Below are positions 1-63,359 of a stretch of DNA of 64,000 bases, piece by piece. Both the position numbers and the translations under genes were made by a program. The notes below the pieces were generated by a model that did no database searches, was not told where the DNA came from, and saw only the letters and a list, made by a program, of their open reading frames with translations. The stretch comes from Trypanosoma brucei. Taxonomy: Eukaryota. The DNA lies in NCBI GenBank assembly GCA_000002445.1, contig CP000070.1, forward strand, positions 128,001 to 192,000. Direction: 5' to 3'. Position 1 is the first letter of the stretch. Every line of letters starts with the position of its first letter.

Positions 1-1247
1 ATCCTCCCATTGACGAAGTTGCTATTTGGCTGAGCTCCTCGTTTAGGGAGAGCACAACATTCGGACCTACTGAAGCGTGTGGATCCGTGAAAAGTTGCTG
101 CAGGGAAGGTGAAGAGGACGGGTTTGGAGTGATGGGGACGATATCACGGGCAATGCGGCACGTTGGACTCCTCTCCCACATATCCCATAGCTGTGCGGGC
201 CCCTTTCGCGAGAGGTCATCATTTAAATGACCTTTCATGCCACTCCCATCATAGCGAAGCAGTGAAGGCACTTCAAGAAGCCATGCGCGGGTCTTCGTGC
301 CGCTCGCAAGTAACATTTGCACCAACTGCAATAATACCGTAAAAGAACTAACGGAAAGACAACGAATAGAATGTAAGAGCCACAAACTCAGCAGTCCCAC
401 TTCCTCCTCAAAGGAAATGGAGAGGGTGGGACCTGCAACGCAGCCTTTCGTTGCATTCAATCCTGACCGTAAGAACATTGCGCACAGGGCACGAAGAAGT
501 ACACAGAGTATCGACGAGTACTCCAAGCACTCTTGTGGTCGAATAATGTGAAGTTGCTCCGTCTTGGAGCCAGGCCTAAGTGTGAAGAAGTGTAGAAGCC
601 CAACCGCTTCACGAAGCCACGCCTCCAGTTGCTGCGCATGGCACGGGGTCTCGTGTGAAGCACACCAAAGGAACAAAACCTCGTCGAAATCGCATTGGTG
701 GTTGTCGGCACCCGGCGCGGCATTTCCGGGGGATGTGGAAAGGCAGTCACGGCACTTTTTCTCGGTGGTTCCACAGAAATCCCTTTTGCCCTCTGAAAAA
801 ACACCGTCATTTCCCTCACAAATATTTATGGATGATGCATCCGTTAAAATTCCTGTTGGTGACGTGAGGAGGTTCTTTAGTTGGGCCACACGAACCCCAT
901 CCACAAAACACTCAGCGATCACTTGCCGTACCTCCTGCGGTAGTGGAACAGTACAAGCCACAGCAGCTGCAGCAGCGGAGGTATGTGAATTTACCATCTT
1001 GTGCTCGTTATTCACAACACCAAGGGGCCCTTCCGTGAATATCTGCGGAGTGTTTCGCGATCTCAAAGAGACGAAGAAGTTTAACCAATGATTCAATAGT
1101 GGTGGTCGTCCTACATCCCACGATAGTCGCTGAAGTTGAGCCAACGAAGACATCCAGATACTGGAAGCACCGGCCGAACCACTCATCCTTAATATGCGCG
1201 TCCGTGTACAACAAAAGTTGCTTAGCCTTCAAGTATTCAGCTTCCAT
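1..1247 (-). CDS. Hypothetical protein, partial, with an apparent frame interruption. An ATG at 1247 opens an 80-codon frame that stops at 1008. A second minus-strand frame is open from 1228 to position 1 and continues off the window; the ORF track misses it because it has no stop in the window
   Basis: Manual translation of the minus strand. MEAEYLKAKQLL... begins at the ATG at 1247-1245, directly downstream of a polyY tract plus AG (1261-1297). The stop is at 1010-1008. In the other frame there are no TTA/CTA/TCA triplets on the plus strand from 2 to 1228, with in-frame ATGs at 1186, 1153 and 997. Confidence 0.45.
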
Positions 1248-1260
1248 ACCTGTCACACGG

Positions 1261-1297
1261 GTAAGAGGAATAGCAAAAAAAAAAAAGGGAATACTTC
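1261..1297 (-). promoter_or_regulatory. Polypyrimidine tract (minus strand) plus downstream AG; a putative trans-splice acceptor signal for the gene starting at 1247
   Basis: The plus strand is purine-rich: gtaagaggaatagcaaaaaaaaaaaagggaatacttcc. Confidence 0.5.
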
Positions 1298-1644
1298 CCA
1301 TGGTTGCATGGATCAAGCAACAACATAATAATAGCACCCGTGCACCAACTTGTTGGCGCGCATGGTGTGAAAGAAGGCGGAACAAATGCACGTGTGTGTA
1401 CTTGTGCGCGTGGTATGTTGGGCATTTTCACGCACTAAACATTGTCAGCTTCCCGGAGCATATAACACAAATCACACACCTACAACGAAAATGGCCCGAA
1501 AAAAAAATATATGTATTTGTAGAATTATTGAAGTCGATAGCCCCACAACACTTGCCATATATTGCTTCAGAAACCAATATACGCTAGCAATGATGTATTC
1601 ATACAAACCACAACACACAAACATGTATACGTAATATACGAGCG

Positions 1645-2397
1645 CTACACTTGATACTTAGATTTGGGGCGGGTCCGTTGCCCCTTCCGCTTCTCTCCAG
1701 TATTCTTCACAGCACTCACCAACTGACCACTGAGTGTAGGATCCACCACATCACCCCTCTTTGTCTTGCTGCTTTTCAATTCCGGTAACATACCCACGCG
1801 TATCATCTTTGCAAAAGGAAGGTTAGCCACCGCGGCTAATTTGTACCGACGGAAGCGGAAGCGCTTAATAATTCTGTGCTTCTTCATTTGGAACCGCCGA
1901 GCCAACCATCGTGACGAGGGATATGGATAATTGCGGGGTCCAAAAGTCACCTGGCCATAAAATTTAGCGGCCCATCGAGCACTGAGTTCGTCCAACTGAT
2001 CGCCGTATGCAACCGAATCAACTTCTACATTTGTTTGCTGCTTCAGTTGTTTCCGTTCGCCTTCCTTTACGCTTCTCGTACCCGTATCGTTGCGGGTGCC
2101 ACTAGCAAAGTAAAAGTGACGAGGTCGGTGGGAAACATCAGCACTGGCAATCATGTGGTGACGAAATGAAGCCGTCGCATGATGCTCGTTGAAAGAAGCG
2201 GCAGTTGGTTTCCGATCAATATAACTCCCTCGTAGCGGTGGCGGCAATGGAAATATAACTGCCGGCGCCATCTGCGTTGTAGCACACCTCAGCTCTTGTG
2301 TTTCTTGGCATGTCGCTTGCATGGAGGTAGTGGTGGAGCCAAGTGCAGCAATCCCAAGTTTGGGTATGCGTGAGCACGCAACGCAGCCTGCGCGCAT
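1645..2397 (-). CDS. Hypothetical basic (Arg/Lys-rich) protein, 250 aa; possibly an organellar ribosomal-type or RNA-binding protein
   Basis: Complete ORF with an ATG start (verified, rc of cat at 2395-2397). Basic composition (RFRFRRYK..., KRKGQRTRPKSK). Same strand as all neighbouring genes. Confidence 0.55.
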   Translation of the reverse strand: MRAGCVACSRIPKLGIAALGSTTTSMQATCQETQELRCATTQMAPAVIFPLPPPLRGSYIDRKPTAASFNEHHATASFRHHMIASADVSHRPRHFYFASGTRNDTGTRSVKEGERKQLKQQTNVEVDSVAYGDQLDELSARWAAKFYGQVTFGPRNYPYPSSRWLARRFQMKKHRIIKRFRFRRYKLAAVANLPFAKMIRVGMLPELKSSKTKRGDVVDPTLSGQLVSAVKNTGEKRKGQRTRPKSKYQV

Positions 2398-44771: not shown

Positions 44772-46481
44772 TTAGTTGTCTTCACTCTCAAGGGGAGTGC
44801 TTCCACGCACGTGGACATGAAACCCCTTCAGAAGAAACCTCCTCTCCTCTGAAGGTCCTGAAAGTGGAGGTTGAGTGTCGTCCTTTTCCATGTAAATGAC
44901 GTTATCGCACATTGTGCCACAACTGACGTCGCCCTCTAAACGAACAGTGCCCTCCAAAGCATTCTTCTGAAGGGAAGGATGTTGCGCAGGAATGGGCGGC
45001 GGCCTTGGCACGTCAGCGTCCTCCTCTTCCTCACCTTCTTCTTCCACTTCTTCGTTCTCATTTTCTTCAGCTTCCCGCTGTGCACGCTCGCAGGCCACTC
45101 TCTCAACAGCTTCTGCATCAGGTGGTATAGGTGGCACACGACCTTTTACAAGGATGCACTCCCTCCCACACCATCTAATCGCACAGCACTTAACTTTAGC
45201 AGCGCCACACTCTCCAGTGAAGAGTATGCCCACAGTACTATGGCTTTCCAGCCGCAGGAACTTCAATTCGGTGCCCGCGCAACCGTCGACAAGCATAACC
45301 CCAATATCTGTGTGGGCAATAAAGCAGTCACGCACGGAAACATCCGCATCGTCCAGATACAGTGCTACGTTGCACATAGCCTTTGTAGGTATCTTGGGTT
45401 GGGATACGACCTTCTTCCACCGATTCTTCAGGCGAAATAAGGGGCTTTGTTGTGCATGACGCGCAGCACGAAACTGGTCGGCGGTATACGTGGTTGGCGT
45501 TCCCTCAACAGGACCCAAAATCATGGAGGTGTGGATCTGCAGTGAGCACCGTGGATACGCGTAAAGCGCCTGCTTCGCACTGCCGTAAATAATGCAGAAC
45601 TCTATCAGCGCCTCGCTAAGAGGGTGGGCCACTACTGTTGGCAGCACTGGAGGTTCCGTAGATGGTTGACACGTAGTCGTTTCCACGGCCTCGGTCGTCG
45701 CTAAGGGATCTTTCCTCTGTAATGCATAATCGCCGAAGACACAGTGGCGGAATGTGGATCTGGTGAGTGGATTAAGCTCGATACCCCCAAAGAAGCATAA
45801 ACCTTGCATTTCCAGATGATTATCCTTTGCTTTGTGAACCATCTCAGCCTCCTCTGTGGACCCCTCTGGAGCATCGTCGGCATTTTCCTCCTCTTCATCC
45901 CCATCAGCCACTCTATCCTGCTCATCATCATAGTGTTTAATGCCCTGCAATCCCTCAGGAATTTCCGCGTCTTCATCGACAGAAACAAACGGCCGACTGT
46001 GACGCACTATCAGTCGCCCTTCAATCACTGGAAACAGTTGGGGATCTGGTGCTGTAGGGGTTACAGTTGCGGTAGCAGGTGCTTCACCACCGTAGGGCGC
46101 GTACCATGGGCCCAATCGGCGCTCGTCCCTTGGAATATGGATCTTCTTGCGATAACCAGCCTTCCGCCCCAGTGCCACCGGGACGCTCATAATCCGTAAG
46201 CCATCCAGTCGAGACTCCTCAATGACCACCTCTTTCTCAAGATAGGCGCCAGGGTACACGATCACAAGGTCCTCACGGTATGTCACCGCGTCCAACGCTT
46301 CCTGCAGCTTCTGCATGCTACTAAAACCACCCACGTAAAATGTACTTGGTCCATCTTCCAGCTGGGAGAGATCGTTTGATTCCTCCCACTCCTCTTCTTC
46401 TTCCTCTTCTTCTTCCTCTTCCTCCTCTTCTTCTTCCTCTTCTTCTTCACGTGCTTCAAGCTCGCTTTTCTTCGGAGGCAT
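44772..46481 (-). CDS. Hypothetical protein (569 aa) with an N-terminal poly-glutamate run of more than 20 residues
   Basis: ATG verified. MPPKKSELEAREEEEEEEEEEEEEEEEEEEEWEE is encoded by a (GAG/GAA)n codon repeat at about 46372-46450. The rest is non-repetitive. Confidence 0.6.
   Translation of the reverse strand: MPPKKSELEAREEEEEEEEEEEEEEEEEEEEWEESNDLSQLEDGPSTFYVGGFSSMQKLQEALDAVTYREDLVIVYPGAYLEKEVVIEESRLDGLRIMSVPVALGRKAGYRKKIHIPRDERRLGPWYAPYGGEAPATATVTPTAPDPQLFPVIEGRLIVRHSRPFVSVDEDAEIPEGLQGIKHYDDEQDRVADGDEEEENADDAPEGSTEEAEMVHKAKDNHLEMQGLCFFGGIELNPLTRSTFRHCVFGDYALQRKDPLATTEAVETTTCQPSTEPPVLPTVVAHPLSEALIEFCIIYGSAKQALYAYPRCSLQIHTSMILGPVEGTPTTYTADQFRAARHAQQSPLFRLKNRWKKVVSQPKIPTKAMCNVALYLDDADVSVRDCFIAHTDIGVMLVDGCAGTELKFLRLESHSTVGILFTGECGAAKVKCCAIRWCGRECILVKGRVPPIPPDAEAVERVACERAQREAEENENEEVEEEGEEEEDADVPRPPPIPAQHPSLQKNALEGTVRLEGDVSCGTMCDNVIYMEKDDTQPPLSGPSEERRFLLKGFHVHVRGSTPLESEDN
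46372..46450 (-). repeat. (GAG/GAA)n codon repeat encoding a poly-Glu run
   Basis: The plus strand reads tcctcttcttcttcctcttcttcttcctcttcctcc... Confidence 0.85.
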
Positions 46482-61569: not shown

Positions 61570-62490
61570 TCACATGCCTGGTGTCGGGGTACTACTCTTC
61601 TCTACAGCGGCAAATCTTTTAATCTCATTGATAATCTGCTGATTGGCTTTTCTCAGATACTTCACTTCCTCCTCGTGGATCTTCTGTTCGGACTGCTTCT
61701 GCTCCTCGAAGCGCTTCAGCATCCCATTGTGCTTTGCTCGTAACTCATTCACACGATTCTCGAGTCGACGCACCTCGCTTTCCATCCATTCTTTCTCCTT
61801 GAATAGATAGCTTCTCAAATCACGCTCAATGGCCTTTCGTACGGTATATTGAGAGGCACTATCAAACAGAATATCGTACGTATTTGTTGTTTGCTGCATC
61901 TCCTCCGCCAATTCGGCTAGCAGCAACCCACGTTCCGGACAGAGCACAGTCACCTGTCGAATAACCTCCCGCATTCCATCTGCGTATATCCCCTCCCGAA
62001 TAGTGCATACCACTCCAGAGGGACGTGCATGCTCCTGTTGACAGCGCCGCTCCAAGTGTTCCTGAAGGTGAACACAGTCCAAACGGCTCGTGTGATCAAC
62101 GGCAGCAGCCTTCATCCATGCACATTCCTGCTCCTGCCCGCGGGTATTGGTACGATCCTTATCGTGTCCCGGCACGTTGAGTGGCACGGGGGGAAACAAT
62201 TTGGCGAGGGCTTTTACTGGAGTTAAACTTTCCTGAGTGAGTCGCACTGGTCCCCCATCCGACTGAATGGCGTCTCGTGTGCCGGCAACCCCGCTTTGCG
62301 TTTGCCCGAACTTTTGTCTATTGGTGGTGGGAATGGTGGGCGCCTCTTGGCCCGCGGCGGCGGCTGTAGCAGCATTAACCGCTGCAGCCGTGATCGGCTC
62401 ATCGTCACTAATTAAGTTTGAAGGAACAGCACGATACAACACGGTGCCTTCCTCATCGTAAACGTTCGGTGGTGCGTTCAAGGTTGCCAT
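61570..62490 (-). CDS. DNALI1: Axonemal inner-arm dynein light chain p28 (DNALI1 family)
   Basis: ATG verified. ...DCVHLQEHLERRCQQEHARPSGVVCTIREGIYADGMREVIRQVTVLCPERGLLLAEL...YLRKANQQIINEIKR is collinear with human DNALI1 (...DVVHLEEQLD...ICPVRRELYSQCFDELIRQVTINCAERGLLLL...FLKRTNQQLK). Confidence 0.85.
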   Translation of the reverse strand: MATLNAPPNVYDEEGTVLYRAVPSNLISDDEPITAAAVNAATAAAAGQEAPTIPTTNRQKFGQTQSGVAGTRDAIQSDGGPVRLTQESLTPVKALAKLFPPVPLNVPGHDKDRTNTRGQEQECAWMKAAAVDHTSRLDCVHLQEHLERRCQQEHARPSGVVCTIREGIYADGMREVIRQVTVLCPERGLLLAELAEEMQQTTNTYDILFDSASQYTVRKAIERDLRSYLFKEKEWMESEVRRLENRVNELRAKHNGMLKRFEEQKQSEQKIHEEEVKYLRKANQQIINEIKRFAAVEKSSTPTPGM

Positions 62491-63359
62491 TTTGAGTGTC
62501 TAACGCAGCCGTGCAGGCCTTTACTTTCCCACGTCTATTGAGTGCCCCCACCCCGTTACTTTTCTTCTTGCAGATTTTTCTCTCTTCTGACCTACTAACT
62601 GCACTTGATTTACCTGCTAATATGTTGCGAACAGGTAAAAGAGCAAGGACGCAGAACCCTGTCCTCCTGAACCGCAAAGAAGACATGAGTGTTAGAGCGA
62701 GAGGAATCGCAGCATGTATGTGTTAATGAAAAGCCGTGATGCAAGTGAGAGTAGGTTGATGAATAGCACGAAACCGGAGCGGATCGCCGGTATTTCCAGC
62801 ACGCACGATAATGTTTCATTTTCTCATGCAAGAAACGTGACAAAATAAGGATTGGAGGATTCATCAGCCCATAGAGAGGTGGAAATATAATAAGAAATAA
62901 TATCACTTCCCACGAATTTTATTTCGTAAAAAAAAAAGCAACTGAGAAGCTAAAATGACTCCGAGCTTTCCCACAGATAAACAACAAAAACAAAAAAGTC
63001 ACATGCCCTTGCACCTTCGGTTGCTTTTACGTGGCATGCGGAGACTGGGAGACCGCTGGAAGTTAAACAATTTCAATTGTTCTTGTTAACCACCCTTTTT
63101 TTTTTGTGAACGACAACAATTCACCCGCGCTCCTTTCACAACTTAAGGTAAAGCAACAAATGGAGATGTAGACGCCAGATAAATGCTGATCCAAACGAAA
63201 GACCTCCTCTGGGTCATAGTCATTTCACCTACCACTAATAATTTTTTTAAAAAAAGGAAAATTATGTGTCTCATCATTGCTTCTCCTTAGAAAAAGATAA
63301 CACCAGGCCCACCTTGCCCACGTTGGTGTTGCCTTCAGTTGGAGGACGTAACCACGCCA

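What the first reader, a model, noticed from the sequence alone, without database searches (positions are those of the whole stretch)
1..1247. Gene at the left edge shows an apparent frameshift, and the ORF track misses an open frame running off the window
A minus-strand gene starts at the ATG at 1247, directly after a polyY/AG acceptor (MEAEYLKAKQLLLYTDAHIKDEWFGRCFQYLD...), but stops after 80 codons at 1008. A second minus-strand frame that overlaps it is open from 1228 all the way to position 1 (more than 400 codons, ...MVNSHTSAAAAAVACTVPLPQEVRQVIAECFVDG...LSQIATSSMGG) and continues beyond the window. There is no polyY tract between the two, so two separate genes are unlikely. The alternatives are an indel sequencing error, a genuine pseudogene or strain-specific frameshift, or a very small upstream ORF overlapping a downstream gene.
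Basis: seen in the sequence. Interest (0 to 1): 0.5.

Follow-up and report, generated by a model that had tools for sequence, protein, structure and literature searches.

The report
Intact gene with overlapping upstream ORF
There is no frameshift: the long frame is the intact, already annotated Trypanosoma brucei gene Tb927.7.620, which starts at the ATG at 1186, and the 80-codon frame is a non-conserved, out-of-frame upstream ORF at the very start of the same mRNA, which is an ordinary arrangement in trypanosomes.

Summary
The two overlapping minus-strand frames exist as described. They are not a frameshift.

**The real gene.** The long frame from ATG 1186 to codon 395 at position 2 is letter for letter the annotated T. 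b. brucei TREU927 protein XP_845686.1/Q57VQ8. Its TGA stop starts at window position 1. By position it is Tb927.7.620. Orthologues in seven other Trypanosoma species all start in this frame, and twelve invariant residues (W11 to F38) lie inside the overlap. Five Trypanozoon assemblies show no indel here.

**The 79-codon ORF (1247..1008).** It has no homologue among 5.8 billion proteins. It is absent from T. vivax, T. cruzi, T. conorhini and T. grayi. All three of its substitutions within Trypanozoon change its amino acids, and the two inside the overlap are silent in the annotated frame.

**One mRNA.** An RNA-seq contig starts exactly at the predicted spliced-leader acceptor (AG 1251-1250). 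ATG 1247 is therefore nucleotide 3 of a 63-nt 5' UTR, which makes this an out-of-frame overlapping uORF. It probably lowers translation of the main ORF, but that is inferred.

**The product.** TrypTag places it at the tripartite attachment complex.

Verdict: ordinary and already annotated; low interest.

The parts
1..1186 (-). Coding sequence of the annotated gene: 395 codons from 1186 to 2. Position 1 is the first base of the TGA stop. It is T. b. brucei TREU927 'hypothetical protein, conserved' XP_845686.1/Q57VQ8, and Tb927.7.620 by position.
   Evidence: The translation is an exact match to the annotated TREU927 and T. equiperdum OVI protein. Orthologues in seven further Trypanosoma species are co-linear from the N-terminus. 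The TGA stop is seen in L006 and L007.
1008..1247 (-). Out-of-frame (+2) upstream ORF: 79 codons plus TAA. It starts in the 5' UTR and overlaps the first 179 nt of the main CDS.
   Evidence: Searches show the two frames. The peptide is not in the 15-billion-protein collection and has no homologue at E<=10. It is absent in T. vivax, T. cruzi, T. conorhini and T. grayi. All 3 of its substitutions within Trypanozoon are non-synonymous in this frame.
1187..1249 (-). Predicted 5' UTR of 63 nt. ATG 1247 is its third nucleotide.
   Evidence: RNA-seq contig L007 starts at window 1250/1249 and runs without gaps to 76 nt beyond the stop. The same ENA run series yields contigs that carry spliced-leader sequence.
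1250..1251 (-). Predicted spliced-leader acceptor AG (cAG|GT), the first AG after the pyrimidine tract.
   Evidence: The T-run lies 25-36 nt upstream, within the -14 to -43 range reported for major T. brucei splice sites (PMC2916883). The base at -3 is not G (PMC2936537).
1259..1291 (-). Pyrimidine tract (T12 run at 1286-1275) that directs trans-splicing of this gene and polyadenylation of the upstream one.
   Evidence: Read directly from the sequence.
1404..1423 (-). Polyadenylation region of the upstream gene Tb927.7.630. It bounds the intergenic spacer, so the next mRNA must start downstream of it.
   Evidence: Kolev 2010 supplement: poly(A) at chr7 129,404/129,423 with a 3' UTR of 241/222 nt, which fixes the window offset at 128,000. 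RNA contig L008 ends at window 1421.

Best explanation
**Shown.** The left edge of the window holds one intact, already annotated protein-coding gene of T. b. brucei TREU927 chromosome 7. By position it is Tb927.7.620 (395 aa, 43 kDa). Its coding frame is the long frame, and its start codon is the ATG at 1186. Nothing is shifted.

**Partly shown.** The 79-codon frame starting at ATG 1247 is a lineage-specific, out-of-frame upstream ORF. The spliced leader is added at the first AG after the pyrimidine tract (1251-1250). ATG 1247 is therefore nucleotide 3 of a 63-nt 5' UTR and the first AUG a scanning ribosome meets.

**Inferred.** Ribosomes that initiate at ATG 1247 terminate at 1010-1008, which is 176 nt past the main AUG, and are lost for the main ORF. 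The protein would then be made by ribosomes that scan past the uAUG. Its context lacks the -3A and +5C that favour initiation in T. brucei. The protein could also come from minor mRNAs spliced at the downstream AGs (1242, 1228, 1222, 1189). The net effect would be a modest lowering of output. The peptide itself has no function.

**The main product.** It is a Trypanosoma-restricted, mostly alpha-helical protein. The TrypTag atlas places it at the tripartite attachment complex that ties kinetoplast DNA to the basal body. A structural or assembly role there is the most likely function. That is inferred from localisation only.
For: **The annotated frame is the coding frame.**
- The translation of 1186..2 is an exact match to XP_845686.1/Q57VQ8.
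- Orthologues from T. congolense, T. vivax, T. cruzi, T. c. marinkellei, T. conorhini, T. rangeli and T. grayi align from the N-terminus. W11, L15, Q17, L18, Q19, S22, W23, R27, P29, W34, F37 and F38 are invariant, and all lie inside the overlap.
- W11 lies upstream of M12, and a stop sits at 1231-1229. ATG 1186 is therefore the only possible start.

**No indel.** TREU927, DAL972, T. equiperdum OVI, T. b. equiperdum and an RNA contig align without gaps.

**The alternative ORF is not constrained.**
- The two substitutions in the overlap are silent in the main frame and change the amino acid in the other frame.
- The peptide has no homologue, and the ORF has no counterpart in four outgroup species.
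- Open runs of this length in the +2 frame are common.

**One mRNA covers both frames.**
- RNA contig L007 spans window 1250 to 76 nt beyond the stop.
- Sister contigs carry spliced-leader sequence, so the run series is RNA-seq.
- The upstream mRNA ends at 1404-1423.

**Published background.**
- uORFs, including those overlapping the CDS, go with about 2-fold lower translation efficiency in T. brucei (PMC4210626).
- Initiation context preferences are from PMC13069569.
- TAC localisation is from the PMC9981465 source data.
Against: - No spliced-leader read counts or ribosome footprints for this gene could be retrieved. Use of AG 1251-1250 as the major site rests on sequence rules and on one RNA contig whose first base (G) could be either leader or genome.
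- Translation of the uORF and its effect on the main ORF are not shown.
- Codon-usage scoring over the 179-nt overlap barely separates the frames. The 21 codons upstream of the main ATG score slightly coding-like.
- Only three substitutions are available within Trypanozoon.
- T. congolense DNA could not be obtained.
- The gene ID Tb927.7.620 is assigned by position between Tb927.7.610 and Tb927.7.630, not read from a record.
- The TAC role rests on a single high-throughput localisation.
Confidence: 0.92

Rival explanations
1. A true frameshift. A single ancestral ORF began at ATG 1247 and was broken by an indel, either as a pseudogene or strain-specific frameshift or as a sequencing or assembly error in this genome.
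For: Only the appearance: the first ATG after the splice acceptor opens a frame that stops after 79 codons, while a second frame stays open. An automatic gene caller split the RNA contig in the same way, into 80 aa plus 332 aa.
Against: The long frame has its own conserved start. Its N-terminal residues 8-40 are conserved across eight species within the overlap. No orthologue carries anything like the 79-aa peptide. No indel is present among five independent sequences. The main frame cannot be extended upstream because of the stop at 1231-1229.
Confidence: 0.01
2. Programmed +1 ribosomal frameshifting. Translation starts at ATG 1247 and shifts into the long frame, which would give an N-terminally extended fusion protein.
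For: The two frames overlap on one mRNA.
Against: The main frame has its own ATG, followed by conserved residues from position 8 on. In four outgroups the upstream frame is absent or closed. The substitutions are silent in the main frame and not in the upstream frame. No shift signal was searched for.
Confidence: 0.01
3. Dual coding. The 79-codon ORF is translated into a functional Trypanozoon-specific small protein, in addition to any effect on the main ORF.
For: Its AUG is the first on the mRNA. The ORF is intact in all five Trypanozoon sequences. Its first 21 codons score mildly coding-like.
Against: All 3 of its substitutions within Trypanozoon are non-synonymous. It has no homologue anywhere and no counterpart in four other species. 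Its length is within chance for this frame. It was not found in the held supplements of the small-proteome study.
Confidence: 0.04
4. An inert chance ORF. ATG 1247 is on the mRNA or on part of the mRNAs, but it is bypassed or spliced out so efficiently that it has no measurable effect on the main ORF.
For: Four AGs lie between 1247 and 1186 and could serve as alternative acceptors. [quoted passage not shown] The uAUG lacks -3A and +5C. The tagged protein is detectable in TrypTag.
Against: The first AG after the tract is the expected major site, and the RNA contig reaches it. Genes whose uORFs overlap the CDS show lower translation efficiency on average. Upstream ATGs are depleted from T. brucei 5' UTRs, which implies that they matter (PMC2926603).
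Confidence: 0.35

Closest known systems
[quoted passage not shown] 2014, PMC4210626; 'type D' alternative-frame ORFs of Nilsson et al. 2010, PMC2916883)
   Same: The AUG lies in the trans-spliced 5' UTR, in another frame, and the ORF terminates inside the main CDS. The class is associated with about 2-fold lower translation efficiency.
   Different: This uORF could not be found in the held supplements. Its translation is untested. It starts unusually close to the leader junction, at nucleotide 3 of the UTR.
Out-of-frame overlapping uORF control as in mammalian ATF4 uORF2 (from general knowledge)
   Same: A ribosome that initiates at the upstream AUG terminates past the main AUG and cannot make the main protein.
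   Different: There is no upstream helper uORF and no evidence of regulated re-initiation. The ORF is not conserved beyond Trypanozoon, so a regulatory switch is not indicated.
Tripartite attachment complex proteins of T. brucei (p197, p166, TAC102, TAC60, TAC65, TAC40, TAP110)
   Same: Tb927.7.620 is listed with them among the 20 proteins of the TrypTag 'Tripartite attachment complex' class. Like several of them it is lineage-restricted: only six cluster representatives, all Trypanosoma, turned up among 1.84 billion proteins.

Membership tests
Frameshifted gene (pseudogene, strain-specific frameshift, or indel sequencing error) | Homology to orthologues switches from one reading frame to the other at a definable point | tested here: not met
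   All orthologues align to the long frame alone, from residue 1 to 395.
Frameshifted gene (pseudogene, strain-specific frameshift, or indel sequencing error) | An indel relative to close relatives or independent assemblies | tested here: not met
   Ungapped identity apart from 2-18 substitutions in DAL972, T. equiperdum OVI and T. b. equiperdum. The RNA contig shows no gap opening over 1250 nt.
Frameshifted gene (pseudogene, strain-specific frameshift, or indel sequencing error) | The upstream-frame peptide is conserved as the N-terminus of the orthologues | tested here: not met
   No homologue at E<=10. The ORF is absent in four outgroup loci.
Out-of-frame overlapping upstream ORF of a trans-spliced mRNA | The upstream AUG lies on the mature mRNA, between the spliced-leader acceptor and the main AUG | tested here: met
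   RNA contig L007 starts at window 1250/1249. The run series is shown to be spliced-leader-bearing RNA-seq. The first AG after the pyrimidine tract is at 1251-1250. Caveat: no leader-junction read was seen for this gene.
Out-of-frame overlapping upstream ORF of a trans-spliced mRNA | It is in a different frame from the main ORF and stops downstream of the main AUG | tested here: met
   It is in the +2 frame. The stop at 1010-1008 lies 176 nt past ATG 1186.
Out-of-frame overlapping upstream ORF of a trans-spliced mRNA | Ribosomes initiate at the upstream AUG (frame-specific footprints) | not testable with these tools
   The gene was not found in the held ribosome-profiling supplements.
Out-of-frame overlapping upstream ORF of a trans-spliced mRNA | Removing the upstream AUG raises main-ORF output | not testable with these tools
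   This needs an experiment. Only class-level statistics are available.
Tripartite attachment complex component | The protein localises between the basal body and kinetoplast DNA | not testable with these tools
   Reported by TrypTag: Tb927.7.620 is in the TAC class of the source data (PMC9981465).
Tripartite attachment complex component | Depletion causes missegregation or loss of kinetoplast DNA | not testable with these tools
   No publication on this gene was found in the library.
Tripartite attachment complex component | Sequence or fold relationship to a known TAC subunit | not tested
   No direct comparison with TAC subunits was made. General searches gave no Pfam family, no PDB sequence match, and only generic helical matches.
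Programmed ribosomal frameshift gene | The downstream frame lacks its own conserved start, and the upstream frame is conserved | tested here: not met
   The downstream frame has a conserved start region. The upstream frame is not conserved.

The most novel reading that the evidence does not exclude
The 79-codon ORF that begins two bases after the spliced-leader junction is efficiently translated. It acts as a Trypanozoon-specific gate, possibly tuned by choice among the five closely spaced AG acceptors. The gate would set the dose of a tripartite-attachment-complex protein, or would itself yield a functional small protein.
Probability: 0.06. Interest if true: 0.35.

Novelty: already known. Interest (0 to 1): 0.07.

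Why it matters
The practical lesson concerns annotation. In trypanosome sequence, the first ATG after a splice acceptor is not necessarily the start codon. Resolving this removes a false pseudogene or frameshift flag from an intact gene.

The only biological interest is modest. An uncharacterised, Trypanosoma-only protein that TrypTag places at the tripartite attachment complex carries an out-of-frame uAUG at the very start of its mRNA. That could be tested as a determinant of its expression level.

Tried and rejected
- **Codon usage.** Codon-usage likelihoods were trained on 20 genes of the window. Over the 179-nt overlap they do not separate the frames, so I relied on orthologue conservation instead.
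- **Pfam.** The 395-aa protein has no family. The 79-aa peptide gave only a sub-threshold IS1 transposase match (E 0.14, 13 bits against a cut-off of 24), which I dismissed as noise.
- **Profile search.** A profile search of 1.84 billion representatives found only Trypanosoma orthologues, so it gave no functional lead.
- **Membrane protein idea.** The hydrophobic 19-mers of the T. brucei protein are not conserved in the orthologues, so I rejected it.
- **Per-gene expression data.** I looked for splice-site, ribosome-profiling and small-ORF data for Tb927.7.620 or its coordinates. There was nothing in the held supplements of Nilsson 2010, Jensen 2014, Kolev 2010 (only the neighbouring genes), Vasquez 2014 and Ericson 2014. 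Siegel 2010 has no held supplements.
- **Origin of the RNA run.** A literature search for run ERR7929162 found nothing. Its RNA-seq nature was instead shown by spliced-leader sequence on sister contigs.
- **T. congolense DNA.** Not on record.

Full report
**What is in the sequence.** Read on the minus strand, the region is laid out as follows.
- A pyrimidine tract lies at about 1291-1259 and contains a T12 run at 1286-1275.
- The first AG after it is at 1251-1250.
- Two bases later comes an ATG at 1247. That ATG opens 79 sense codons, closed by TAA at 1010-1008.
- The overlapping frame has a stop at 1231-1229 and is then open for 409 codons down to position 2. It has in-frame ATGs at 1186, 1153 and 997.
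- The ORF tool does not list this frame, because it does not list ORFs that run off the source.

The alternative ORF lies in the +2 frame of the long one. In 20 control genes of the same window (41.6 kb), that frame contains 19 open runs of at least 58 codons. The length of the short ORF is thus within chance.

**Which frame is the gene.** I searched with a chimeric query made of both frames. It returned six Trypanosoma proteins, and all of them matched only the long frame. Their sequences start upstream of the ATG at 997, for example MSGSAGASSIWMSSLAQLQRLSWDVGRPP... in T. b. equiperdum, MSNIWMASLGQLQ... in T. congolense and MAAVAAGGVWQKALAQLQ... in T. cruzi.

In the alignment, W11, L15, Q17, L18, Q19, S22, W23, R27, P29, W34, F37 and F38 are invariant, and all lie inside the overlap with the short ORF. 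W11 precedes M12, and the frame is closed at 1231-1229. ATG 1186 is therefore the only possible start.

A profile search of 1.84 billion representatives added only T. grayi and T. vivax, so the family is restricted to Trypanosoma.

The translation of 1186..2 is identical to the annotated TREU927 protein XP_845686.1/AAZ12127.1 (UniProt Q57VQ8, 'hypothetical protein, conserved') and to the T. equiperdum OVI protein. Relatives show that the codon after residue 395 is TGA. Window position 1 is its T.

**No indel, and selection acts on the long frame.** DAL972, T. equiperdum OVI and T. b. equiperdum align to the window without gaps across the gene and its 5' region. An RNA contig does the same. Within the overlap there are two substitutions, at window 1106 and 1025. 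Both are silent in the annotated frame and change the amino acid in the short frame. A third, in the part of the short ORF upstream of ATG 1186, also changes its amino acid.

The 79-aa peptide is not in the 15-billion-protein collection and has no homologue at E<=10. In T. vivax, T. cruzi, T. conorhini and T. grayi, no upstream ATG opens an ORF that runs into the coding sequence. In T. vivax and T. cruzi the +2 frame is closed after about 33 codons.

Codon-usage scoring of the short overlap was not discriminating.

**Where this is in the genome.** Kolev et al. 2010 list the poly(A) site of Tb927.7.630 at chr7 129,404/129,423, with a 3' UTR of 241/222 nt. This places its stop at 129,645, which is window 1645, the end of the 250-aa ORF at 1645..2397. 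The window is therefore chr7 128,001-192,000.

The next gene downstream of the focal gene encodes a DNA ligase in every species examined. Tb927.7.610 and Tb927.7.600 are the kinetoplast ligases (PMC10719067). The focal gene is therefore Tb927.7.620 by position.

**One mRNA, with the short ORF's ATG at its 5' end.**
- The protein cluster contains a 332-aa member from a Logan assembly of run ERR7929162.
- Its 1,328-nt contig (L007) matches window 1250..1 without gaps. It continues through TGA for 76 nt and stops about 45 nt before the next pyrimidine tract.
- A second contig from the same run (L008) ends at window 1421, inside the mapped polyadenylation region of Tb927.7.630.
- The spacer 1420..1251 is missing from both contigs.
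- Contigs of the same run series for another gene of the window begin with 27 or 14 nt of the T. brucei spliced leader. One from ERR7929162 itself begins with the leader's last four bases. These are therefore RNA-seq assemblies of trans-spliced mRNAs.
- L007 starts G|GTATGG. This is what a leader ending in ...ATTG joined at AG 1251-1250 would give, although that single G could equally be genomic.

The position fits published rules. The AG is preceded by a T-rich tract at -14 to -43, and there is no G at -3 (PMC2916883; PMC2936537). ATG 1247 is therefore on the mRNA, most likely as nucleotide 3 of a 63-nt 5' UTR.

**How it most likely works.**

*Shown:* the gene is intact, and an out-of-frame AUG precedes the real start on the same RNA.

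*Inferred:* a scanning ribosome meets AUG 1247 first.
- If it initiates there, it terminates 176 nt beyond the main AUG and cannot make the protein.
- Production of the protein then depends on leaky scanning. The upstream AUG has G at -3 and A at +5. The main AUG has A at -3. Neither has the +5C that promotes strong initiation (PMC13069569).
- Alternatively it depends on minor mRNAs spliced at the AGs at 1242, 1228, 1222 or 1189.

In T. brucei, upstream ATGs occur in about 11-20% of 5' UTRs and are depleted relative to chance (PMC2926603; PMC4210626). Genes with uORFs show about 2-fold lower translation efficiency, including those whose uORF overlaps the CDS. I could not retrieve splice-site counts or footprints for this gene. 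Both translation of the uORF and its effect therefore remain untested.

**What the gene product is.**
- The protein has no Pfam domain and no relative among solved structures.
- It has no conserved transmembrane segment.
- The AlphaFold model from the seven-sequence alignment is all-helical but of low confidence (pLDDT 58, pTM 0.62).
- In the TrypTag source data, Tb927.7.620 is one of 20 proteins in the 'Tripartite attachment complex' class. It sits there with p197, p166, TAC102, TAC60, TAC65, TAC40 and TAP110. Its neighbours Tb927.7.600 and Tb927.7.610 are in the antipodal-site class (PMC9981465).
- No paper in the library mentions the gene in its main text.

A structural or assembly role at the attachment complex is the best guess. 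It rests on localisation alone.

**Verdict.** The apparent frameshift comes from taking the first ATG after the splice acceptor as the start codon. The gene is intact and already annotated as such. The short ORF belongs to a known and common class. Interest is low.

Noticed in passing
window 1645..2397 (-): The 250-aa gene upstream (Tb927.7.630) is the mitochondrial ribosomal protein mS38. It gives a full-length, near-exact sequence match to chain Cn of PDB 6HIV (E 2.5e-169), although most sources name it 'hypothetical'.
   Followed up: partly
L008 1-26, joined at window 2333: The RNA contig for mS38 from run ERR7929162 begins with 26 nt (GCATCAGTATGTTTTTTAGCGCGAAG). This sequence is neither spliced leader nor found anywhere in the window or the related loci. 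The junction lies inside the annotated CDS and has no AG before it. It may be a chimeric assembly or a strain difference; it is unexplained.
   Followed up: partly
window 1..2397 and beyond the left edge; L001, L002, L003, L004, L016: The gene order mS38, then Tb927.7.620 (TAC class in TrypTag), then kinetoplast DNA ligase is conserved in T. brucei, T. vivax, T. cruzi, T. conorhini and T. grayi. A second ligase gene follows where the locus reaches that far (T. cruzi, T. conorhini; Tb927.7.600 in T. brucei). This is a run of mitochondrial or kinetoplast-related genes.
   Followed up: no
window ~1194..1589 (+), equivalent to L005 1098..1493 (-): The T. b. gambiense DAL972 record carries a 131-aa ORF on the opposite strand. 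It spans the intergenic spacer, the pyrimidine tract and the 5' UTR of Tb927.7.620, and it is very likely a spurious call.
   Followed up: no
window 62654..62689 (-), upstream of the dynein light chain gene 61570..62490: RNA contigs show the spliced leader joined at two acceptor sites 8 nt apart, at window 62667 and 62659. Other contigs reach further upstream. This is an example of alternative trans-splicing in this window.
   Followed up: partly
window 1008..1066 (main-frame residues about 41-66): African trypanosomes carry a poorly conserved insertion here relative to the T. cruzi clade, and the model predicts it to be disordered (pLDDT below 50). It contains the ATG at 997 and the stop of the short ORF.
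   Followed up: no
window 44772..46481 (-): The translation from the first ATG of this 569-codon ORF is not in the protein collection, whereas eight other long ORFs of the window are. The annotated start of this gene probably differs.
   Followed up: no
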